A DNA stretch of 64,000 bases from an uncultured Chloroflexia bacterium (GCA_963833225.1 CAWHXD010000005.1:32001-96000); one strand, 5' to 3'; shown: positions 10,928 through 18,686, numbered from the stretch's first letter. Made by a program: numbers and translations. Notes: generated by a model from the sequence alone, not told the origin.

Positions 10928-13126
10928 TCACGCGTCCCGGACAGCGCGCACAAACGTGCCGCCGACACCCGCCGCAATCGAGATCACCCCCGCCCCGATG
11001 ATCACCGGAGCGGCCGTGAACAGCTCCACCAGGACGCCGCCCGCCGCCATCGCCAGGCTCATCCCACCGAACACCAGCGCGAACCGGAAGCTCACCACGC
11101 GTCCCATCAGCTCCGGCGGCGTGCGCTCCTGGAACAGCGTCTGGCTGGGGATCACGAAGGCCATGTTCGCGACGCCCATCCCGAACAGGATCCCGAGCAC
11201 CGCGGTCACGTTGCCCACCAGCCCCAGCGCCACCCCGCCCACCCCGAACGCGATGTACGCCACGATGATCAGCCGCCCCTTGCGAGCCCGGCCGGCGACC
11301 GCGCCCAGCAGGAACCCGCCGATCAGGCTGCCCGCGCCGATCGCCGTCTCCATGAACGCGTAGGTCGCGCGCCAGGCCGGCTCCGGTGCCGTGGTGATCT
11401 CGCGAGCGAGGATCACCGTGGCCACCAGCAGCATGCCCAGCGAGAACTGGCCCGCGGCGCCCTGGAGCGTGTTCGCGAGGAGCACCGTCTCGTTGCGCAG
11501 GAAGCCCCAGCCGGCCCGGAGATCCTCGCCAACCGACGTGCGTCCCTCGTCCGTGCGCGGTGTCTCGCCCGCCGTCTCGCCGGCGGTCTCGGCGTCGCCC
11601 GGCCTCGCCGCTGCGGCGGCACGGCGGATCAGCGGCGGCACCACGATCGTGGCGATCAGGCCCGCGGACGCGAGATACGTCACCGAGTCGAACCAGAAGG
11701 CGAGCGCCAGGGAGTCCCGGAGGAAGACCACGAACAGGCCCGCCAGCGGGTAGTTGATGACGTCCGCGATCGTCTCCGCCACCCACATCGCGGAGTTGGC
11801 CGAAAGCAGGTCCTCCTCGTCCACGATGCGCGGCAGGATCGCCTGCCTGGCCGGCCGGAAGAAGATCGAGATCGTGGTCAGCAGGAACACCAGCGGGTAG
11901 GCGACCCAGACGTTGAGCAGGATCGCGACCGGCACCAGCAGCACCACCGCCGCTCGCAGGATGTCCGACACCACCAGGACCTGCTTCTGGTCCCAGCGGT
12001 CGACGAAGGTGCCCGCGATCGGCGACAGGAACAGGTTGGGGACCGTGGCCACAAAGAACATCAGCGCCGTGAGCAGCGCGGAGTCGGTCAGCTCGTACAC
12101 GAACGCTGCCAGCGCGATCTGGTTCACGCGATCGCCGAACAGGCTGATGATCTGGCCCACCCACAGGGCCGAGAACGACGGATTGAGCGCGAGGCGGACG
12201 TAGGGGTGGCTCCGGACGCGCTCGGCCAGCGAGGGCAGGCCCGGAACCCCGAGCCTGACCAGGTCTCCTGGGGCAATCGTGTTCTCGCGGACCACCGCCG
12301 CGGCGTGCTGGCCGCGGGAGGTCAGCTCCACGGCTCGCGCCTCCGCCTCCTCGAGGGGGAATGGCGCCAGCGCTGGCGACGCGAGACCGATGCCACCGGC
12401 GCCCATCATCAGCGGCCGCTCGAGCGCCAGGGCTTCGTCGAAGGCCGAGTTCAGGCCCGAGCCCGCCCGGACCGCATTGCCTTCCTCGTCGACCGGCGCC
12501 AGGGTCCCCGGCAGGCGCAGCGTGCCCGCCAGGCCCTCGTATCGGCCCGCACGGGCGTCGTCAACCGCTTGCTGGGCCTGCTCCGGGCGCCGGAGCAGCG
12601 TCGCGAACAGGAAGAAGCCAAGACCCGCCGTGAGGAACACGTCGCCAAGCGAGGCAACGTTCTGGATCGGCGGGAAGGGGATCGGGATGATGTCGCCCAG
12701 CGGTCCGAGGCGGAACAGGAACTCTGGCCCGATCTGCGCGGGCAGCGTGAAGTGCAGGACCGAGTCCAGCGGCGGCGTCAGCCCCGACGCCTCGAACGCC
12801 GGCAGCCACACCGGCATCCGGCCGCCGTTGGCCGTGATCGCGAGGGCGTTGGCCGCCACGCCCACGAACGCCAGAGCCAGGCCCGGGTACCAACGGTTGT
12901 GCCACAGCGTGAACAGCAGGAGCCCGTAGGCAGATCCCAGGAGTGGGGCGCGCAGCGTCTCGACCAGGGGGATGTTCCAGCCCAGTGCGAGCTCCGTCGC
13001 GAACCGGATGATGACCGCGAGGAACAGCAGCGGCAGGAACCGCAGTCGGATCGTCGCGAGGTGCTCGAGCTTGCCGCCGAGCAAGAGGCCGAGGACCAGC
13101 CCGAGGATGATCCCGATGGTCAGCAA
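10928..13126 (-). CDS. DUF5317-like membrane domain fused to an MFS exporter (MFS_3/DHA3-like)
   Basis: N-terminal ~180 aa with ANGGRMPV...LGDIIP...SLGD; ~125-aa linker; MFS from LWVGQIISLFGD with DRWDQK and GRVVS motifs. Confidence 0.8.
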   Translation of the reverse strand: MLTIGIILGLVLGLLLGGKLEHLATIRLRFLPLLFLAVIIRFATELALGWNIPLVETLRAPLLGSAYGLLLFTLWHNRWYPGLALAFVGVAANALAITANGGRMPVWLPAFEASGLTPPLDSVLHFTLPAQIGPEFLFRLGPLGDIIPIPFPPIQNVASLGDVFLTAGLGFFLFATLLRRPEQAQQAVDDARAGRYEGLAGTLRLPGTLAPVDEEGNAVRAGSGLNSAFDEALALERPLMMGAGGIGLASPALAPFPLEEAEARAVELTSRGQHAAAVVRENTIAPGDLVRLGVPGLPSLAERVRSHPYVRLALNPSFSALWVGQIISLFGDRVNQIALAAFVYELTDSALLTALMFFVATVPNLFLSPIAGTFVDRWDQKQVLVVSDILRAAVVLLVPVAILLNVWVAYPLVFLLTTISIFFRPARQAILPRIVDEEDLLSANSAMWVAETIADVINYPLAGLFVVFLRDSLALAFWFDSVTYLASAGLIATIVVPPLIRRAAAAARPGDAETAGETAGETPRTDEGRTSVGEDLRAGWGFLRNETVLLANTLQGAAGQFSLGMLLVATVILAREITTAPEPAWRATYAFMETAIGAGSLIGGFLLGAVAGRARKGRLIIVAYIAFGVGGVALGLVGNVTAVLGILFGMGVANMAFVIPSQTLFQERTPPELMGRVVSFRFALVFGGMSLAMAAGGVLVELFTAAPVIIGAGVISIAAGVGGTFVRAVRDA

Positions 13127-13160
13127 GGCTCAGCCCCGGGGTGGGAGAGGGACCGCGGGG

Positions 13161-14657
13161 TCAGCGTGGCTCAGCCGGGCGGGCCGCCCGTGCCGTCGGC
13201 GGCACGACGTTCACGGATCCCGGGCTCGCCGCGGGCGCCGCTCCTGGGCCTGGCGCCACGCCCGCGGGCTGCCCCGTGCCCGAGGCCAGCGCGGCCCCCG
13301 GGTTGGGGTGCTGTCCGATGAGGGGGATCGGTTGCGGCTGGATCGTGCGACCCGGGTCCGCCACACCTTCTGCCCAGTGCGTCTGGACGAAGGCGTCCAC
13401 GATCCTCGGGTCGAACTGGATCCCTGCGAACTTGCGCAGCTCGGCGATCGCCTGCTCAGGCGTGAGCGGCGTCATGCGGTATGGGCGTGCCGCCGTCATC
13501 GCCTCGAACGAGTCCGCCACGTGGAGGATCCGCGCCAGCAGCGGGATCTCGTCGCCGATCAGGCGGTCCGGGTAGCCCGAGCCGTTGTACCACTCGTGGT
13601 GGTGCCGGATGATCGGCAACTCCCGGGACAGCCGGTTCACCTTCTCGATGATCTGGGCACCCAGGACTGGGTGCGAGTTCATCATGATCCGCTCCTCCTT
13701 GGTCAAGCGGTCCTGCTTGAGGAGCACGGCGTCTGGCACCCCGATCTTGCCGACATCGTGGAGGAGACCACCCCATTCAAGCGCCTCGAGGTCCGCCGCG
13801 CCCAGCCGCATCACCCGCCCGATGTCGCCGCCGATCTCCTTCACCCGCCAGGAGTGGCGGCTCGTGTACGGGTCGCGCTTGTCAACGGCCTCTGCCAGGG
13901 CCGTGATCGTCTGGGTGAACATCTCGCGCATCTCGGTGTAGTTCCGGTACGCGAGGCGGGTCATGTAGAGCGGCAGGGCGAACAGCAGGCTCGCCCACGC
14001 GGCGATCACATAGATCTGGGCCATCAGCCAGCCGATCGGCGCGAGGCTCACGATGCTCGTGGCAACGGAGCGCGACTCGGCCCGAATGATGCTCGCGGCG
14101 CTCTCCTCGGTCCTCAGGGAAACGCTGAACGCCACCAAACCGGCGTTCACCGCGAGGAACACGGCCCCGCCCGCCAGTGCCACCAGGAAGATCGTCGGCG
14201 AACCTAGAGCCTGACTCCAGGCTGCCGGGTCTTGCGGCGGGACGCCAAGGGCCATCATGAAGAGTCCCGCCACGACGGCCGGCACGATGATCTCAGCGTG
14301 GTTGGACAGGGTTCCGTACCAAGGCACGCGGCCCCGAAGCTCGCGAACTTCTGTGGTCCCGAGGAGGCCGACCCATGCCCCTGCCGTCGGCCCGCCGACG
14401 ATGGTCGCCGCCGTGATCGTCGACACGGAGACGGCAAACATGGCACCCCGAGGCATCTTGACGGGCAAGGAAGATGCGACGAGGGTCACCAAGATCCAGA
14501 ACGCTAGCCCGGCGACGGGGGCGAGGTCCCCAAACTCCACGAAGCCTGCCGCGATCGGTGAGGTGGCACGCAGGGGAAATAGAAGAGTCGTGGCGACAAG
14601 CGCGACTGCGCTCGTTGCCACGACCCCTGCGATGTAGAGCTTCAGTTTCCTCGGCAT
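13161..14657 (-). CDS. Membrane-anchored HD-GYP c-di-GMP phosphodiesterase
   Basis: About 6-7 N-terminal TM helices; DPYTSRHS, LLHDVGK, HHHEWYNGSGYPDRL, ADSFEAMT..RPYR. Confidence 0.9.
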   Translation of the reverse strand: MPRKLKLYIAGVVATSAVALVATTLLFPLRATSPIAAGFVEFGDLAPVAGLAFWILVTLVASSLPVKMPRGAMFAVSVSTITAATIVGGPTAGAWVGLLGTTEVRELRGRVPWYGTLSNHAEIIVPAVVAGLFMMALGVPPQDPAAWSQALGSPTIFLVALAGGAVFLAVNAGLVAFSVSLRTEESAASIIRAESRSVATSIVSLAPIGWLMAQIYVIAAWASLLFALPLYMTRLAYRNYTEMREMFTQTITALAEAVDKRDPYTSRHSWRVKEIGGDIGRVMRLGAADLEALEWGGLLHDVGKIGVPDAVLLKQDRLTKEERIMMNSHPVLGAQIIEKVNRLSRELPIIRHHHEWYNGSGYPDRLIGDEIPLLARILHVADSFEAMTAARPYRMTPLTPEQAIAELRKFAGIQFDPRIVDAFVQTHWAEGVADPGRTIQPQPIPLIGQHPNPGAALASGTGQPAGVAPGPGAAPAASPGSVNVVPPTARAARPAEPR

Positions 14658-14745
14658 CCGTCCCCAGTTCCCGATGTACTTCGGGACTCTAGCCCGTCCG
14701 CCCTATCTCAGTGAACAGGACTTGAGTACTGAGGTGGAGTTGAGG

Positions 14746-14835
14746 CTAGAAGCCCCGAAGTGACGCTCCCCCGGCGAGTGCCACGGCGGCAACAGCGCTC
14801 AGGGCAACCAGGACACGCAGAAGGCGATCCTTCAT
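14746..14835 (-). CDS. 29-aa signal-peptide-like precursor MKDRLLRVLVALSAVAAVALAGGASLRGF (not in the ORF track)
   Basis: Hand-translated ATG..TAG; GGAGG 8 nt upstream; basic n-region, hydrophobic h-region, short polar/aromatic tail. Confidence 0.8.
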   Translation of the reverse strand: MKDRLLRVLVALSAVAAVALAGGASLRGF

Positions 14836-14857
14836 CGGTCGATCCTCCGCGCCCCTT

Positions 14858-14890
14858 CTACCAGGACTTGAAAGCCTTGGTCGGTCCCAC
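14858..14890 (-). CDS. Putative 10-aa micro-ORF MGPTKAFKSW
   Basis: GTG..TAG preceded by a strong GAGGAGG RBS; shares the GGAGGATCGA leader with the 29-aa ORF. Confidence 0.4.
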   Translation of the reverse strand: MGPTKAFKSW

Positions 14891-14927
14891 GCTCGATCCT
14901 CCTCGCGGCTCCCGTGTCCCTTCCAGG

Positions 14928-14963
14928 AACACGAAAACCGACCTGACTCGAAAGTCGGTCGGT
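14928..14963 (-). terminator. Intrinsic terminator forming the riboswitch expression platform
   Basis: ACCGACC-GACU-UUCG-AGUC-A-GGUCGGU followed by UUUCGUGUU; the 5' arm overlaps the 3' strand of aptamer P1. Confidence 0.75.
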
Positions 14964-15030
14964 TGCACTACTCGCTCCACCCTCACCCTAAGTGCCCAGT
15001 TCAGGTGAGGGCATCTGCGCGTCCGAGCGT
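14957..15030 (-). ncRNA. c-di-GMP-II riboswitch
   Basis: UCGG-ACGC-GCAGAUG-CCCUCACC-UGAACU-GGGCAC-UUAG-GGUGAGGG-UGGAGCG-AGUAGUGCAACCGACC; matches the class II consensus (GGGCAC/GUGC pseudoknot, kink-turn GA/GA, AGUAGUGCAACCG). Confidence 0.9.
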
Positions 15031-15068
15031 TCTTTGTGGCCCAGTACGTTCGTACTAGTACGGGCCGG

Positions 15069-15098
15069 ACTATAGGTAGCCCGGACACCACCGGTCAA
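15069..15098 (-). promoter_or_regulatory. Sigma70-type promoter of the riboswitch/peptide operon
   Basis: TTGACC-N18-TATAGT about 40 nt upstream of the aptamer. Confidence 0.7.
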
Positions 15099-15173
15099 TA
15101 CGCAACCCTACCTATGTCCACCGATCCAGATCGGCTCACTTCCGCCCGACACTTGGCACAGGCGGCGCGGAGA

Positions 15174-18100
15174 CTAGATGTCCTCGTAGGAGGGAGGCTC
15201 CGCGGCCAGTTCGCTCCGGACATACGCTGCGTAGTGGGCGTACTGCTCGGCCGCAGCGGCCCGTCGCCCACTCCGCTTGTATGCTCGCAACAACTCAAGC
15301 TCTATTGCATCGGCTTGCGGATCCACCGCAAGGACGGCTTGGCCGACGCGGATCGCCGCATCGTAGTCGGCTCGCTGTTGGCTACGGGTCATCTCCGCTT
15401 CAGAGGCCGCCAAGACCGCGGCATGAAGATTCTCACGGTAGGTCGACGCCCATTCCTCGTAGGCGAATGTGAGCGCATAGCGGCCGCGGTAGTTGCGCAG
15501 CAACTCGAAGAGGGCCTGGTCATCACCTTCCTTCGCGCTGTCGATCAGAAGCCAGCACTTACGACTCACCACGTTGACGAGTCCGTCGTTCAGGCTCACG
15601 ACGTCACCGTCGAACTGGATGTAGCCGGCGCTCATGCCCTCGCGGTAGTCGGGTTCGAGCACTCTGCGAAGGAAGTAGATGGCCTGGTGTAAGGAGTTAC
15701 CCCCCGCCTCAACCCCTAGTTCGGGCCACAGTGCTTCGATCACTTCTTCCCTGTTGGCGGACATCCGAGGTCGCGATGCAAGGAAGCAGACGAGCGAGAG
15801 GACCTTCCGCCTCAGGTATCGGGGCTGATCCTCGCCCTCGAGGAACACCTCGACGGCCCCCAAATCCGAGACTGTCACTGCGCCTGCAAGCCTCTTCGTG
15901 ATCGCCAGCGCGCTGGGTCGAAGGGACTTGTTCGTACTCGCAGCCTTGCGCAGCAGGGCGGCATCCTCGGCAGACCCGACCTCCGCCAAGATTGCGCTGG
16001 CGAACACGGCTGCTTCCAGGTTCCCTCGGATCGCTTGCACCACCGGGGAACGCCAACGATCGGGCCGAAGCTTGGCTTCACGTTCGAGCATGGCCCGACT
16101 TTCAGCCGAGAGCAGGTGAAGCCTCACGACCAGTTCCTCGGCCAGCAGCGACCAGCAATAGGCCCCGGAGGCACTCCGTGAGAGGGCCTCATCAAGTGGC
16201 ACCCCAGTTGCCGCATCGACGAGCAGAGCGGCAAGGTATGAGCCGCGGCGCGTGTTCTGAGCACCCGCGACACGAGAGGCCTCCTCGGCCGCGGCCTTTG
16301 CCGCCGGATCGCCCTTGTGGAGAGCAACACGTGTCGCGAGGATCTGTGTTCTCAACTTGCCGGCGGCGTCGGCGCATCGATCTTGGCCAAGGCGCGTCAG
16401 GCTCGCTAGGGCCGCCGAGGTGTCCCCTTGGCGAAGGGCGGTCTCGCCGACAAGGAGGTTGTAAATGCCCACATGCCCTCGGGACAGCAGCGTCGGGTCA
16501 AGGTGCTGGAGCCACACACTCGCCTCGTCCGCCGATCCGAACTCGGTCTCTATCCGCGCCGCCTCGAGGCAGACTTCGGCGTTCGCGAGCAGGCTTCCCG
16601 CAGGTGCTGCGCAAGACGTGATCGCGCGCGACTCGGCCAGCCGCCCCAATTGGGCCTCTGCGGCAGCCACCATCATCGTCGCGGACACTCGCTCCACCGA
16701 TCCGTGCGCGCGGCCACCTAGGAGTGTTTCCGCCAGCGAGGCTTCCCTGAGCGCGTCTGCCGCGTCACCCAGCCAGAGAAGTACGCCGGAGAGGTTCAGC
16801 CGCGACACGCCCGCATACCGACTGCGCCCCTCCCTCTCCTGGTCGGCGGCCAACCTCCGAAGCGACTCGGCAATCTCGAGCAGATCCCCTTCTTGACTGG
16901 CCTGCATCAGGGTCAGATTGGCGAGGGCGACATAGCGCTGCGGTGGAGTGAGCGCCTCCCTAAGGGCCCGGGCGTTGGCCTCGGCAGCCTCGTCAGCGAC
17001 GCCGAACACCCCGAGGGTTGAGGCCAGCGTCAGAAGCGAGAGTCCGCTGAGTGTGCCGCCTGCGCTTTGCTCGACTGCCACTCGCGCCCATCGGACGGCC
17101 GTCGGGAAGTCTCCGCGCTGCAGTTCCAACCTCGAGCGAAGGATGAGGGCAGTAGGGCGGTCTGGGTCTCCGGCACCAGCGTCCAGAAACCCCCTTGCGA
17201 GTTCGAATTCCCCGGCGGCGATGATCTCCTCGAGCGAGCTGTCCACGACCGACGCACAGGCTTGGATGTCACCCGCCATCAGGTAGTGCCATGCGCTCAC
17301 GTTCCATCCGAACGCCCTGAGCTCCACGGCCAACGATCGATGCAAGTCCCTGACTGCCTGCCCGCCAATGCTCGCGGCAAGCCGTGTTTGGAGGAACTCC
17401 TGAACCAGCGGATGAAACCGATGTGGTGACACACGGTCCGGCTTCGTCAGCAGGCCAAGGCGCTCCGCATCCGCAATCGCCCGGCGCGCATGCTCGTCGT
17501 CAACTTGGCCGACAGAGATTGCAGACGCCACATCAACCGTCGTCAGAACCGATGCTCGCATGAGGAAGTCGGTCAGGTCACTTGGCAAGGAGGCAAGCAC
17601 CTCCTCGGCAAGGAAGTCGTACATGTCGCTCGCCGATGCCCTGAGGTGAGCTACAAAATCACGCGGGTCTTGTCGCTCCGCGAGTCGGGCGTTTACTAGG
17701 GTCAGGAGGGCTGGCCAGCCGTCGGTTCGCTCGCAGAGATCGGAGACAAGGTCCTGGTCCAGGGGGTGCCGGTAGGCGTCACGGAACAGGCTTGATGTCT
17801 CGGCGACGTCAAAACGGAGGTCCTGTCCGCTCAGGGCCATGACCCCACCGCGAGCCCGGAGGCGGCCGACGGCGAGCGAGGGCTTCGACCGCGACGCGAG
17901 GATCACGGAGAACCCTGGCCCGGTGCGGTCGAGCAGGGCACGGACGATGGGCTCGGTCTCGTCGAACCCGTCGACGAGGTGGTAGTCGTCAATGATCAGG
18001 GTCAGGCCGCGCTCGCTGCGAGTGCCGAACTCTGCCATCTCGCGCGCGATGGTGAGCACGAGGTCCTTCTGCGTTGGACCCCCGGTGCCCAGGGCGAGCA

Positions 18101-18686
18101 GCATAGCGAAGGTGGTCGGCGCGAAGCCCGGCTGGAGTTCGCGCCCGGAGGCGACGAGGTGACGCACGAACGTCAGCCAGTCGCGGTCGTCCGCCTCCAG
18201 GCGGTACCAGGCGGTCATCCGCCGCGTGTGCCGGGCCCAGTCGCCCAGGAGCGTGGTCTTGCCGAAGCCGGCCTCGGCGATGATCAGGCCGAGACGGCCC
18301 GCCGCAGCCTGTTCCAGCCACGAGTTCAGACGAGGTCGCGAGAGCGTGTCGCTGCGCTTGAGAGGGCAGTGGATCTTGGCCGGCTGGACGGGCAGCGGAT
18401 TCATGCCGTACGCACCGGACCCCAGGATCGGCCCGGCGAACCCAGGCCCGACGGCGACCAACCCATGCCCGTCGTGTGCACTCCTCCCGGGCGACGCGGG
18501 CCGCGCTTCCGCGGACGGGGTGGCGCCGCTGTTGGTGCCTGACGATACGGCAGGTTGTGGCGCGGAGGTCGGCTCCCCATGCACCCGGGGATGCACCCGG
18601 GCGGATTGCCCGCCGGATGAGGCGCGGTCGCTGATGGGCTGGCTGGTCGTCGGGGGCATGGCGACATCGTGCCGTGTGCCACTCAA
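15174..18686 (-). CDS. MalT-like STAND ATPase-TPR regulator with C-terminal wHTH-BTAD (SARP-type); true start probably 18404-18659
   Basis: KIHCP..SRPRL, Walker A AEAGFGKTT, WYRLE, IIDDYH, TDGWPA, RFHPLVQEF; C-terminal VIEALWPE..LHQAIYFLRR and YRGRY..YEEW. Confidence 0.85.
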   Translation of the reverse strand: MSGTRHDVAMPPTTSQPISDRASSGGQSARVHPRVHGEPTSAPQPAVSSGTNSGATPSAEARPASPGRSAHDGHGLVAVGPGFAGPILGSGAYGMNPLPVQPAKIHCPLKRSDTLSRPRLNSWLEQAAAGRLGLIIAEAGFGKTTLLGDWARHTRRMTAWYRLEADDRDWLTFVRHLVASGRELQPGFAPTTFAMLLALGTGGPTQKDLVLTIAREMAEFGTRSERGLTLIIDDYHLVDGFDETEPIVRALLDRTGPGFSVILASRSKPSLAVGRLRARGGVMALSGQDLRFDVAETSSLFRDAYRHPLDQDLVSDLCERTDGWPALLTLVNARLAERQDPRDFVAHLRASASDMYDFLAEEVLASLPSDLTDFLMRASVLTTVDVASAISVGQVDDEHARRAIADAERLGLLTKPDRVSPHRFHPLVQEFLQTRLAASIGGQAVRDLHRSLAVELRAFGWNVSAWHYLMAGDIQACASVVDSSLEEIIAAGEFELARGFLDAGAGDPDRPTALILRSRLELQRGDFPTAVRWARVAVEQSAGGTLSGLSLLTLASTLGVFGVADEAAEANARALREALTPPQRYVALANLTLMQASQEGDLLEIAESLRRLAADQEREGRSRYAGVSRLNLSGVLLWLGDAADALREASLAETLLGGRAHGSVERVSATMMVAAAEAQLGRLAESRAITSCAAPAGSLLANAEVCLEAARIETEFGSADEASVWLQHLDPTLLSRGHVGIYNLLVGETALRQGDTSAALASLTRLGQDRCADAAGKLRTQILATRVALHKGDPAAKAAAEEASRVAGAQNTRRGSYLAALLVDAATGVPLDEALSRSASGAYCWSLLAEELVVRLHLLSAESRAMLEREAKLRPDRWRSPVVQAIRGNLEAAVFASAILAEVGSAEDAALLRKAASTNKSLRPSALAITKRLAGAVTVSDLGAVEVFLEGEDQPRYLRRKVLSLVCFLASRPRMSANREEVIEALWPELGVEAGGNSLHQAIYFLRRVLEPDYREGMSAGYIQFDGDVVSLNDGLVNVVSRKCWLLIDSAKEGDDQALFELLRNYRGRYALTFAYEEWASTYRENLHAAVLAASEAEMTRSQQRADYDAAIRVGQAVLAVDPQADAIELELLRAYKRSGRRAAAAEQYAHYAAYVRSELAAEPPSYEDI

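What the first reader, a model, noticed from the sequence alone, without database searches (positions are those of the whole stretch)
10928..18686. Candidate undescribed peptide-signalling system coupled to c-di-GMP: riboswitch, peptide precursor(s), membrane HD-GYP receptor, DUF5317-MFS processor/exporter, STAND-BTAD regulator
Seen: one co-oriented minus-strand unit comprising a promoter (15098-15069), a c-di-GMP-II aptamer plus terminator, 10-aa and 29-aa micro-ORFs with strong RBSs, a multi-TM HD-GYP protein and a DUF5317-like/MFS fusion, preceded by a MalT-like TPR/BTAD regulator. Established: HD-GYP domains hydrolyse c-di-GMP, class II riboswitches sense it, and agr-type cassettes pair a tiny precursor with a membrane peptidase and a membrane receptor. 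Inference: high c-di-GMP switches the operon on. The peptide is then cut and exported by the fusion protein and sensed by the TM domain of the HD-GYP enzyme, giving a quorum-sensing-like feedback loop whose output is c-di-GMP degradation rather than histidine-kinase phosphorylation.
Basis: partly seen in the sequence, partly recalled or inferred. Interest (0 to 1): 0.92.

Follow-up and report, generated by a model that had tools for sequence, protein, structure and literature searches.

The report
Riboswitch-controlled micro-proteins beside membrane c-di-GMP phosphodiesterase
An uncultured soil and freshwater bacterium carries a conserved operon in which a c-di-GMP-sensing RNA switch controls two tiny genes, a membrane enzyme of a family that degrades c-di-GMP, and a membrane protein of unknown function fused to a transporter; the parts are real, but how they work together is not known.

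Summary
Window 10928-18686 (minus strand) carries these parts in order:
- a MalT-like/BTAD regulator
- a sigma-70-type promoter
- a c-di-GMP-II aptamer (66.6 bits) whose 3' end forms the 5' arm of a terminator
- a 10-codon ORF
- a 29-codon ORF
- a multi-TM HD-GYP enzyme
- a DUF5317-MFS fusion

The organism is an uncultured Chloroflexota of class Ca. Limnocylindria, judging by the record titles of related loci.

The cassette is conserved across the class. Among 80 related loci:
- The aptamer was found in 74. The 6 misses all lack upstream sequence.
- The regulator was found in 64 of 65 loci with enough flank.
- DUF5317 and MFS were each found in 68 of 68.

Across 91 loci (the window, these 80 and 10 more), the 29-aa ORF was found in 81 and the 10-aa ORF in 77.

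The 29-aa ORF is protein-coding: pN/pS is 0.40 in frame and 1.1-2.1 out of frame. Similar micro-ORFs (hydrophobic stretch, AGGA[S/N/D], short tail) precede TM-HD-GYP plus DUF5317 in three other Chloroflexota families.

DUF5317 folds confidently (pLDDT 94.7) but matches no solved structure. It also sits beside a peptide-less GGDEF-EAL gene.

My reading is a c-di-GMP feedback module whose phosphodiesterase is modulated by a membrane micro-protein. The agr-like model of a cut, exported and sensed peptide is neither supported nor excluded. The module appears undescribed in the literature I could search.

The parts
15174..18686 (-). STAND-type regulator (1170 aa). The N-terminal NTPase resembles MalT, the middle region is helical, and the C-terminus carries a winged-helix domain plus BTAD.
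   Evidence: BTAD 36.8 bits (cut-off 22.1). AAA_16 28.3 bits (below 32.6). Trans_reg_C 20.5 bits (below 26.2). MalT NF003420 7.2e-56 over aa 102-496. A co-oriented homologue ends within 1.2 kb upstream in 64 of 65 related loci with enough flank. It is not linked to the module outside Limnocylindria.
15069..15098 (-). Promoter P1: TTGACC, 18 nt, TATAGT.
   Evidence: 10 of 12 consensus matches; the only hit in 14500-15300. Conserved in 11 genus-level sequences.
15044..15061 (-). Conserved ACTAGTAC-nnnn-GTAC element between the -10 box and the aptamer. It could be an operator or a 5' hairpin.
   Evidence: Conserved columns in the 11-sequence alignment. Function not tested.
14949..15033 (-). c-di-GMP-II riboswitch aptamer.
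   Evidence: RF01786, 66.6 bits, E 1e-12. My own covariance model finds it in 74 of 80 related loci. 95.8% of cells are paired and 4 pairs show compensatory changes.
14926..14960 (-). Intrinsic terminator whose 5' arm is the 3' end of the aptamer (the expression platform).
   Evidence: Terminator scan. In the RNAfold MFE of the leader the hairpin uses aptamer positions. Nearly invariant within the genus.
14858..14890 (-). uORF1, 10 codons (GTG start, peptide ending K-S-W, TAG stop), with a GAGGAGGA ribosome-binding site.
   Evidence: Read. Found in 77 of 91 loci. Length is 10 codons in 61, 9 in 15 and 12 in 1. C-terminus is [K]-[G/S/P/A]-[W/F/Y]. Stops are TAG 63, TAA 14, TGA 0. pN/pS is 0.82 in family f1 and 0.54 in f4.
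14746..14835 (-). ORF2, a 29-aa micro-protein: basic N-terminus, a 14-residue hydrophobic stretch, A-L-A, then GGASLRGF.
   Evidence: Found in 81 of 91 loci. pN/pS is 0.40 in frame against 1.14 and 1.68 out of frame. The AGGAS codons vary only at third positions. G22 and G23 are invariant in 79 sequences.
14686..14691 (-). TAGAGT, a candidate -10 box of an internal promoter (P2) ahead of the HD-GYP gene.
   Evidence: TAGA[GC]T occurs in 47 of 75 loci, in 44 of them 21-36 nt before the HD-GYP start codon (3 at 58-71 nt), against 2.3% of shuffles. The promoter scanner does not call it. Unproven.
13161..14657 (-). Membrane HD-GYP phosphodiesterase (498 aa): a MASE9-like multi-TM N-terminal domain (about aa 1-240) and an HD-GYP catalytic domain.
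   Evidence: HD_5 7.8e-40. MASE9 only E 0.0054, below cut-off. The H/HD/H/HH/D and GYP residues are invariant in 69 sequences. AF2 pLDDT 85.6. Closest solved structures are 5z7c and 4mcw.
10928..13126 (-). DUF5317 (aa 1 to about 195) fused to a DHA3-type MFS transporter (aa about 316-720).
   Evidence: PF17248 82.5 bits and MFS_1 90.6 bits. TIGR00900 2.6e-53. Both domains found downstream in 68 of 68 loci. D145, G161 and D162 are invariant in 51 DUF5317 sequences.

Best explanation
This is a conserved c-di-GMP feedback operon of Ca. Limnocylindria. Its core is a three-part membrane module: a roughly 29-aa micro-protein, a MASE9-like HD-GYP phosphodiesterase, and DUF5317 (here fused to an MFS transporter).

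Proposed sequence of events:
1. When c-di-GMP is high, the aptamer folds and holds the sequence that would otherwise form the terminator's 5' arm.
2. Transcription then runs on into two translated micro-ORFs and, by read-through, into the enzyme genes. The enzyme genes may also have a promoter of their own.
3. The 29-aa product inserts into the membrane with its N-terminus inside and its invariant AGGAS-L-[K/R]-G-[F/W] end at the outer face.
4. There it joins the phosphodiesterase's membrane sensor domain and/or DUF5317-MFS and changes phosphodiesterase activity. c-di-GMP then falls back.

Shown: the parts, their conservation, selection on the 29-aa protein, and the wide genomic linkage of micro-ORF, HD-GYP and DUF5317.

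Inferred: the ON direction of the switch, the membrane topology, any physical contact, and the effect on enzyme activity.

The role of the 10-aa ORF is not explained.
For: - Aptamer above Rfam's gathering score. It is present in 74 of 80 related loci, and the 6 misses have less than 310 nt upstream. Covariation: 95.8% of cells paired against 28-42% when partners are slid.
- The terminator arm overlaps the aptamer.
- ORF2 was found in 81 of 91 loci and uORF1 in 77 of 91.
- ORF2 pN/pS is 0.40 in frame and 1.14/1.68 out of frame in family f1, and 0.41 against 1.04/2.10 in f4.
- A class-level profile search found the peptide in 52 of 91 f1 genomes and 28 of 103 f4 genomes, with one match in nearly every genome (one genome had its match split in two). 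The genus it missed carries diverged versions.
- Synteny: STAND 64 of 65, DUF5317 68 of 68, MFS 68 of 68.
- Outside the class, AGGA-type micro-ORFs precede TM-HD-GYP plus DUF5317 in 7 of 19 extended loci from three other families (5 of them f19 loci with near-identical AGGAN peptides). One of these has a c-di-GMP-II-GAG aptamer and two tandem copies of the micro-ORF.
- HD-GYP lies within 1.5 kb of DUF5317 in about 19 of 30 other Chloroflexota loci. One family has HD-GYP, MFS and DUF5317 as separate genes. That is the unfused counterpart of the fusion seen here.
- The HD-GYP catalytic residues are invariant.
- Contigs from 4 RNA-library runs (4 studies) lie on the leader. Three of them bridge the aptamer's 3' end, the terminator and both micro-ORFs. 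This is a weak hint only, because these are contigs rather than reads.
Against: - No experiment exists, and the organism is uncultured.
- No binding is shown between any of the proteins.
- The hydrophobic stretch of ORF2 is only 14-17 residues and is followed by A-x-A in 77 of 81 sequences. That looks more like a cleavable signal peptide than a stable membrane anchor.
- The conserved C-terminal K-G-W of the cytoplasmic 10-aa ORF resembles ORF2's tail, and this model does not explain it.
- DUF5317 also occurs next to a GGDEF-EAL gene; the peptide profile's only match in this genome lies in the window, and that locus was not scanned for micro-ORFs. Its role may therefore be independent of the peptide.
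- Solved HD-GYP relatives include a cGAMP-specific enzyme (5z7c), so the substrate is inferred from context.
- Internal promoter P2 is only a motif. Whether the riboswitch governs the enzyme genes is therefore open.
Confidence: 0.5

Rival explanations
1. ORF2 is the precursor of a diffusible peptide (about GGASLRGF). It is cut by signal peptidase or DUF5317, exported with help from the MFS part, and sensed from outside by the HD-GYP membrane domain. This would be a quorum-like loop whose output is c-di-GMP degradation.
For: - ORF2 has the signal-peptide shape: about 2.7 basic residues in the first 8 positions, a 14-17 aa hydrophobic run, and A-x-A before GG in 77 of 81 sequences.
- The tail is under strong amino-acid selection.
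- The MFS belongs to an exporter-rich group: TIGR00900, with matches to MefA and EntS.
- DUF5317 has two invariant Asp residues and a conserved lobe that I place outside the membrane. The placement is my inference from the positive-inside rule.
- From recall: short hydrophobic precursors with a C-terminal mature peptide are known in streptococcal SHP-type and enterococcal systems.
Against: - The tail is almost invariant across more than 80 genomes in two families, unlike the rapidly diverging pherotypes of known peptide signals (recall).
- The outer loops of the HD-GYP membrane domain are its least conserved parts.
- DUF5317 has no detectable likeness to any solved fold, peptidases included.
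- DUF5317 also accompanies a GGDEF-EAL gene at a locus where the peptide profile found no match.
- In three other families the tails differ (ITV, INV, DSRWA) while AGGA is kept. The conserved core is therefore the membrane boundary, not the tail.
Confidence: 0.2
2. The peptides act inside the cell on the adjacent STAND regulator. The 10-mer, and a re-imported tail of ORF2, share a C-terminal [K/R]-G-[W/F] motif that binds the regulator's repeat region. This would resemble peptide binding by the TPR domains of RRNPP regulators. The regulator would then activate P1 or P2.
For: - The shared C-terminal motif of the two ORFs. Position -3 is K in 77 of 77 uORF1 and K/R in 74 of 77 ORF2. Position -2 is G in 63 and 75 of 77. 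The last residue is aromatic in all.
- The regulator is adjacent in 64 of 65 loci.
- MalT-type STAND proteins are switched by small ligands (recall).
Against: - TPR matches in the regulator are only faint (E 0.24-0.3).
- The regulator is not linked to the module outside Limnocylindria. One family has a histidine kinase and a NarL-type regulator there instead.
- No peptide importer was seen in the locus.
- No binding test was possible.
Confidence: 0.08
3. The micro-ORFs are only cis-acting leader ORFs. Their translation serves coupling, mRNA stability or attenuation, and their products have no function of their own.
For: - uORF1 shows weak amino-acid selection overall (pN/pS 0.82 in f1).
- In many loci only 8-13 nt separate uORF1's stop from ORF2's start, which suits termination-reinitiation coupling.
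- uORF1 never ends in TGA (0 of 77).
Against: - ORF2 has a clear protein-level signature: pN/pS 0.40, and invariant residues with saturated third positions.
- In family f19 the ORF2-type gene has its own terminator and so is a separate gene.
- In L169 it is duplicated in tandem, each copy with its own ribosome-binding site.
Confidence: 0.1
4. ORF2 is a small membrane-damaging peptide, like a type I toxin or a holin. It is made when c-di-GMP is high, and the neighbouring membrane proteins are unrelated to it.
For: Its size and hydrophobicity resemble known small membrane toxins (recall only).
Against: - There is a tight one-to-one linkage with TM-HD-GYP and DUF5317 across five families.
- No antisense RNA or antitoxin feature was seen.
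- The invariant AGGAS motif and the short hydrophobic run point to specific packing or processing.
Confidence: 0.04

Closest known systems
Riboswitch-controlled c-di-GMP turnover genes (class I and II c-di-GMP riboswitches upstream of GGDEF, EAL or HD-GYP genes)
   Same: A c-di-GMP-II aptamer sits in the 5' leader of an operon that encodes a c-di-GMP phosphodiesterase, giving a feedback circuit.
   Different: Here two conserved translated micro-ORFs lie between the switch and the enzyme. The enzyme may also have its own promoter, and the operon ends in a DUF5317-MFS fusion. My searches found no paper describing this arrangement. 'DUF5317' gave 0 papers. 'Limnocylindria' with 'c-di-GMP' gave 0. 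The 7 papers holding 'c-di-GMP-II', 'HD-GYP' and 'riboswitch' (6 listed) were seen as a listing only.
MASE9-HD-GYP proteins (T. maritima TM1467, S. venezuelae HdgA), as defined in bioRxiv 10.1101/2021.11.05.467447 (passages read)
   Same: A multi-TM N-terminal domain fused to HD-GYP, with poorly conserved outer loops. That paper proposes that ligand is sensed within the membrane.
   Different: The Pfam MASE9 match is below cut-off (17.1 against 24.3 bits), so membership is not established. That paper mentions neither DUF5317 nor riboswitches (0 occurrences of each); no micro-ORF term was searched in it.
Small membrane proteins that modulate sensors or transporters (MgrB-PhoQ, AcrZ-AcrB and the like; recalled, not tested)
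   Same: A single-span protein of about 30 aa encoded next to, and probably acting on, a larger membrane signalling protein.
   Different: There is no sequence relation. The partner is a c-di-GMP phosphodiesterase. Expression is under a c-di-GMP riboswitch. The hydrophobic run is short and is followed by a signal-peptidase-like A-x-A.
agr-type and SHP/Rgg-type peptide signalling (recalled)
   Same: A very short precursor with a basic N-terminus, a hydrophobic body and a conserved C-terminal stretch, next to membrane proteins and a regulator.
   Different: No AgrB or AgrC family domain, no Cys for a thiolactone, no histidine kinase and no Opp importer in the locus. The peptide is nearly invariant across families instead of diversified.

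Membership tests
c-di-GMP-II riboswitch (RF01786) | Score at or above Rfam's gathering threshold over the full model | tested here: met
   66.6 bits against 53.5, model positions 1-84 of 84.
c-di-GMP-II riboswitch (RF01786) | Conserved secondary structure supported by covariation in relatives | tested here: met
   74 sequences, 95.8% of cells paired and 4 pairs with changes on both sides. Slid controls give 28-42%. The alignment was fitted to the model, which favours the structure.
c-di-GMP-II riboswitch (RF01786) | Binds c-di-GMP and changes expression | not testable with these tools
   Only the overlap of terminator and aptamer is shown.
HD-GYP phosphodiesterase | HD_5/HD domain above the Pfam cut-off | tested here: met
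   HD_5 136.8 bits (cut-off 27.2); HD 76 bits.
HD-GYP phosphodiesterase | Metal-binding H, HD, H, HH, D residues and the GYP motif | tested here: met
   H268, H300-D301, H329, H353-H354, D382 and G361-Y362-P363 are invariant in 69 sequences. Assignment of each residue's role is from recall.
HD-GYP phosphodiesterase | Hydrolyses c-di-GMP rather than cGAMP | not testable with these tools
   The best solved relative by sequence is a cGAMP-specific enzyme (5z7c, 5.8e-32).
MASE9 (PF20972) | Match above the Pfam gathering score | tested here: not met
   E 0.0054, 17.1 bits against 24.3, and only aa 156-235.
DUF5317 (PF17248) | Match above the Pfam gathering score | tested here: met
   82.5 bits against 25, profile positions 2-150 of 151.
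MFS, DHA3-like | MFS_1 above cut-off; subfamily model TIGR00900 above cut-off | tested here: inconclusive
   MFS_1 90.6 bits against 33.4 is met. TIGR00900 181.7 bits against 319.6 is not met.
STAND/MalT-like regulator with BTAD | NTPase domain, repeat sensor region, DNA-binding output | tested here: inconclusive
   BTAD is above cut-off. AAA_16 (28.3 against 32.6) and Trans_reg_C (20.5 against 26.2) are below. MalT model 189.7 bits against 537. TPR matches only E 0.24-0.3.
agr-type quorum sensing | AgrB-family membrane peptidase | tested here: not met
   The Pfam and NCBIfam scans of the fusion list only DUF5317 and MFS-type families. The DUF5317 model matches no solved fold.
agr-type quorum sensing | Precursor with a Cys (or Ser) that forms the thiolactone ring; histidine-kinase receptor | tested here: not met
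   ORF2 has no Cys. The membrane receptor candidate is an HD-GYP enzyme, not a kinase.
Sec-type cleavable signal peptide | Basic n-region, hydrophobic h-region, small residues at -3 and -1 | tested here: met
   A-x-A before GG in 77 of 81 sequences; a mean of 2.7 K/R in the first 8 residues. No signal-peptide predictor was available, and cleavage itself is not testable here.

The most novel reading that the evidence does not exclude
c-di-GMP directly gates a two-peptide signal.
- The riboswitch turns on a leaderless cytoplasmic decapeptide and a signal-peptide-borne octapeptide (GGAS-L-[K/R]-G-[F/W]).
- The two share a C-terminal basic-Gly-aromatic motif.
- DUF5317 is a new kind of membrane enzyme or receptor, with an Asp pair (D145, D162) on an outward-facing lobe. 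It processes or binds the tail, and the fused MFS moves a peptide or lipid.
- The result sets the activity of the HD-GYP phosphodiesterase.

This would be the first link between peptide signalling and c-di-GMP turnover, and the first function for DUF5317.
Probability: 0.15. Interest if true: 0.9.

Novelty: new variant of a known kind. Interest (0 to 1): 0.72.

Why it matters
- It gives DUF5317, a widespread family with no known function and no solved fold, a first concrete context. In Chloroflexota it is a steady partner of membrane-bound c-di-GMP enzymes.
- It defines a micro-protein family that gene callers may miss (I could not check this) and that always sits next to a MASE9-like HD-GYP.
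- It suggests that a riboswitch may control not the enzyme itself but a tiny modulator of that enzyme.
- How membrane sensor domains of c-di-GMP enzymes are regulated is largely unknown. This module offers a small, testable set of parts: one RNA, two peptides and two membrane proteins.
- It also adds regulatory biology for Ca. Limnocylindria, a class known from my related loci only as metagenome-derived genomes.

Tried and rejected
- Co-folding. The verdict was 'no answer'. The complex scored 0.43 (median of three runs). Two controls with the partner replaced scored 0.00. A control with chain 1 replaced scored 0.59. The tool says this is evidence neither for nor against binding. The peptide is below the 30-residue size for which the tool was calibrated.
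- Fold search of the DUF5317 model against the PDB: 6 matches, the best at E 4.7, none meaningful.
- ESM Atlas look-alikes for DUF5317, leaving out its own family: no usable hit.
- I considered DUF5317 as a GxGD-type aspartyl protease because of the invariant D145 and G161-D162. That idea rests on recall and found no structural support, so I dropped it as a claim.
- Co-variation of the last residues of uORF1 and ORF2. The counts are W/F 51, F/F 9, W/W 14 and Y/F 3. W is simply the default for uORF1, so this is no real co-variation. The two loci where both ORFs end in K-S-W are close relatives, so this is anecdote only.
- Public runs. No run holds more than 0.17 of the sampled words, so no habitat claim is made.
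- Parts of the stretch without RNA contig cover prove nothing. The runs were found through the conserved leader, and relatives diverge in the coding region.
- Searching the 29-aa family in the large protein collection was not possible. I therefore cannot say whether any database already lists these peptides.
- Supplementary files of the MASE9 preprint (its Figure S5) were not seen. They may show whether this protein falls within MASE9.

Full report
**What is there.** All parts lie on the minus strand of the window.
- A 1170-aa regulator gene occupies 15174-18686. Its BTAD domain is above the Pfam cut-off. A winged-helix match and an AAA_16 match are just below theirs. The N-terminal 400 aa resemble MalT.
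- Then comes a promoter, TTGACC-18-TATAGT, at 15098-15069.
- Then comes a c-di-GMP-II aptamer at 14949-15033 (RF01786, 66.6 bits against 53.5).
- A terminator follows, with its stem at 14960-14936.
- In the minimum-free-energy fold of the leader, the terminator hairpin uses the last 15 nt of the aptamer. Aptamer and terminator therefore exclude each other. This is the layout of an ON switch, and it is an inference from structure, not an assay.
- Downstream lie a 10-codon ORF (14858-14890, GTG start, GAGGAGGA upstream) and a 29-codon ORF (14746-14835, ATG start, GGAGGA upstream).
- Next is a 498-aa HD-GYP protein with a multi-TM N-terminal half (13161-14657).
- Last is a 732-aa fusion of DUF5317 and an MFS transporter (10928-13126).

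**Whose genome.** The window is contig 5 of a 3.89-Mb genome that is 86% complete. The best 80 of 316 related loci in public genomes are nearly all titled Chloroflexota, uncultured Chloroflexia or Candidatus Limnocylindria/Limnocylindrales (a few carry other names), and all but two are labelled MAGs. I take the organism to be an uncultured member of Ca. Limnocylindria.

**Conservation of the cassette.**
- In the first 24 loci from other genera and from a second family (f4), every locus showed regulator, leader and TM-HD-GYP in the same order and orientation. All 9 f4 loci with enough downstream flank also had DUF5317 and MFS.
- In the 80 public loci, a co-oriented regulator ends within 1.2 kb upstream in 64 of the 65 with enough flank. 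DUF5317 and MFS each follow in 68 of 68.
- Rfam found the aptamer at its gathering score in 10 of 13 same-genus loci, with the other three at 49-51 bits. It found it in 13 of 14 loci of other genera, and in 7 of 7 f4 loci at 43.6-59.3 bits.
- A covariance model built from 29 of these aptamers found one copy in 74 of the 80 public loci. The six misses all have less than 310 nt of sequence upstream of the HD-GYP gene.
- On those 74 sequences, 95.8% of cells form standard pairs and four pairs change on both sides. Slid controls give 28-42%.

**The micro-ORFs are real.** I examined 91 loci: the window, the 80 public loci and 10 f4 loci.
- An ORF ending in ...AGGAS-[L/F/I/V]-[K/R/Q]-G-[F/W] was found in 81 of them. 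The 10 without it include three with no upstream sequence and several with a disrupted N-terminal part.
- A 9-10-codon ORF ending in K-[G/S/P/A]-[W/F/Y] just upstream was found in 77.
- For the longer ORF, pN/pS is 0.40 in frame and 1.14 and 1.68 in the other two frames (68 distinct f1 sequences). In f4 the figures are 0.41 against 1.04 and 2.10. The codons for A-G-G-A-S are fixed at positions 1 and 2 and nearly random at position 3. This is selection on a protein.
- The short ORF is less clear. pN/pS is 0.82 in f1 and 0.54 in f4. Its length is fixed: 10 codons in 61 loci, 9 in 15 and 12 in 1. Pro3, the acidic fourth residue and the K-G-W end are kept. Its stop codon is TAG in 63 loci, TAA in 14 and never TGA.
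- A profile of the 29-aa protein found one match in nearly every matching genome: 52 of 91 f1 genomes and 28 of 103 f4 genomes in a draw of 301 from the class.
- The one genus it missed completely carries diverged versions of both ORFs and a weak aptamer of 37.3 bits.

**Shape of the 29-aa protein.**
- It has about 2.7 basic residues in the first eight positions and a hydrophobic run of 14 residues (17 in f4).
- A-x-A stands directly before GG in 77 of 81 sequences. The tail GGAS-L-[K/R]-G-[F/W] follows.
- By the positive-inside rule, the N-terminus is inside and the tail outside. This is my inference.
- The run is short for a stable anchor, and A-x-A is the classical signal-peptidase motif. 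Cleavage to an octapeptide is therefore a live possibility. I had no predictor or experiment to decide it.

**The module reaches beyond the class.**
- DUF5317 occurs in 92 of 301 Chloroflexota genomes sampled (the tally includes one unpublished genome). It is fused to MFS only in the two Limnocylindria families and stands alone elsewhere.
- In 30 loci from other families, an HD-GYP domain lies within 1.5 kb in about 19. In one family (f19) the order is HD-GYP, MFS, DUF5317 as separate genes.
- I then fetched 19 extended loci. Micro-ORFs of the same build (basic start, hydrophobic run, AGGA[S/N/D], tail of 3-5 residues) precede the TM-HD-GYP gene in 7 of them, from three families.
  - In L169 a c-di-GMP-II-GAG aptamer (40.9 bits) and a terminator are followed by two identical tandem copies, each with its own ribosome-binding site.
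  - In f19 the micro-ORF has its own terminator. It lies after a histidine kinase and a NarL-type regulator instead of the STAND protein.
- The constant core is therefore micro-protein, TM-HD-GYP and DUF5317. The regulators vary.
- In the window's own genome, a second, free-standing DUF5317 gene starts 5 nt after a TM-GAF-GGDEF-EAL gene. The peptide profile's only match in this genome lies in the window; that locus was not scanned for micro-ORFs.

**What the proteins look like.**
- The HD-GYP catalytic residues and the GYP motif are invariant in 69 sequences.
- The nearest solved relatives by sequence are V. cholerae cGAMP phosphodiesterase 3 (5z7c, 5.8e-32) and PmGH (4mcw). The substrate is therefore inferred from the riboswitch context.
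- The N-terminal membrane half matches Pfam MASE9 only below cut-off. The paper that defined MASE9 proposes ligand binding within the membrane (passages read).
- In the 69-sequence alignment, the stretches I assign to the outer face (about aa 28-49 and 137-153) are the least conserved. A charged loop (G100-T-T-E-x-R-E-L-R-G-R-x-P-W-Y-G-T-x-x-N-H120), which I place inside, is nearly invariant. The AF2 model has pLDDT 85.6.
- DUF5317 (51 sequences) has D145, G161 and D162 invariant. N100, G102, M104 and P105 are nearly so.
- Its AF2 model is confident (pLDDT 94.7). It shows five long helices and a beta-rich lobe (aa 104-159) that carries those residues. By charge distribution I place that lobe outside, on the same side as the peptide tail.
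- No solved structure resembles the model (best E 4.7).

**How it most likely works.**
- The safest reading is negative feedback on c-di-GMP. High c-di-GMP opens the switch.
- The first products are the micro-proteins.
- The phosphodiesterase genes follow by read-through, and may also have their own promoter. A TAGA[GC]T box occurs in 47 of 75 loci against 2.3% of shuffles; in 44 of those 47 it lies 21-36 nt before the HD-GYP start codon. The scanner does not call it a promoter.
- If that internal promoter is real, the riboswitch mainly controls the micro-proteins. These would then act on a phosphodiesterase that is already present. That would also explain why the micro-ORF is a separate gene in f19.
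- I put 0.5 on this module reading, with the mode of action of the 29-aa protein left open.
- Smaller weights go to an intracellular ligand of the STAND regulator, purely cis-acting leader ORFs, and a small toxin.
- The resemblance between the C-termini of the two ORFs is unexplained by my main model.

**Expression.** Contigs from four RNA-library runs of four studies lie on 14629-15052 at 85% identity or more. Three of them bridge the aptamer's 3' end, the terminator and both micro-ORFs. These are contigs of relatives and may contain DNA. They show presence in RNA libraries, not transcript ends or levels.

**Novelty.**
- Full-text searches found no paper with 'DUF5317' and none with 'Limnocylindria' and 'c-di-GMP' together.
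- For 'MASE9', the search found two papers: the defining preprint and one unrelated paper.
- The listings for 'c-di-GMP-II' + 'HD-GYP' + 'riboswitch' and for 'small membrane protein' + 'c-di-GMP' + 'phosphodiesterase' + 'riboswitch' showed nothing of this kind (listings only).
- Subscription journals are outside that library.
- I rate this as a new variant of a known kind. Riboswitch feedback on c-di-GMP enzymes is known. The micro-protein/DUF5317 module and its place behind the switch appear new.

Noticed in passing
G000 contig C19:273755-277169 (locus L136 3256-6670): A second, free-standing DUF5317 gene (193 aa) starts 5 nt after a gene of about 860-940 aa for a TM-GAF-GGDEF-EAL protein. 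DUF5317 therefore also accompanies a different membrane c-di-GMP enzyme, at a locus where the peptide profile found no match (no micro-ORF scan was run there).
   Followed up: partly
G000 C19:492964-493048 and C6:331733-331818 (L004, L005): Two further weak matches to the c-di-GMP-II model (34.9 and 34 bits, below the gathering score) elsewhere in the same genome. Their neighbours were not examined.
   Followed up: no
window 15044-15061 (-): A conserved ACTAGTAC-nnnn-GTAC element lies between the -10 box and the aptamer in all 11 genus-level sequences. It could be an operator or a hairpin at the 5' end of the transcript.
   Followed up: no
window 14909-14935 (-): A second hairpin directly after the terminator pairs the T-tract (TTCGTGTTCC) with GGGACACGGGA. 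Other genera keep a hairpin there with changed letters on both sides (for example CGCG/CGCG in L038). I judged this by eye and did not count it.
   Followed up: partly
window 14858-14860 and related loci: Stop-codon bias. uORF1 ends in TAG (63) or TAA (14) and never in TGA (0 of 77). ORF2 ends in TAG in 62 of 81 loci. This is unusual for a G+C-rich genome (my expectation, from recall). It may point to release-factor-1-specific termination or to an RNA constraint.
   Followed up: no
L169 3128-3641 (-): In another Chloroflexota family, a c-di-GMP-II-GAG-type aptamer (40.9 bits) with a terminator is followed by two identical tandem 31-codon micro-ORFs, then TM-HD-GYP and a free-standing DUF5317.
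   Followed up: partly
L179 466-2567 (+), L184: In family f19, a histidine kinase and a NarL-type response regulator stand where the STAND regulator is in Limnocylindria. The 24-codon micro-ORF there is followed by its own strong terminator before the HD-GYP gene.
   Followed up: partly
L018, L059, L099, L121, L127, L129: In six related loci the N-terminal part of the 29-aa ORF is out of frame or replaced, while the C-terminal AGGAS... part is kept. In L018 the HD-GYP gene also has stops. This may be assembly error or decay; I could not tell which.
   Followed up: no
f4 loci L046-L053, leader just before uORF1: In family f4, the ribosome-binding region of uORF1 lies in a hairpin (CAGAAG-AGGGCAC-CTTCTG directly before the ATG), and no clear T-tract terminator follows the aptamer. 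The switch there may act on translation rather than termination.
   Followed up: no
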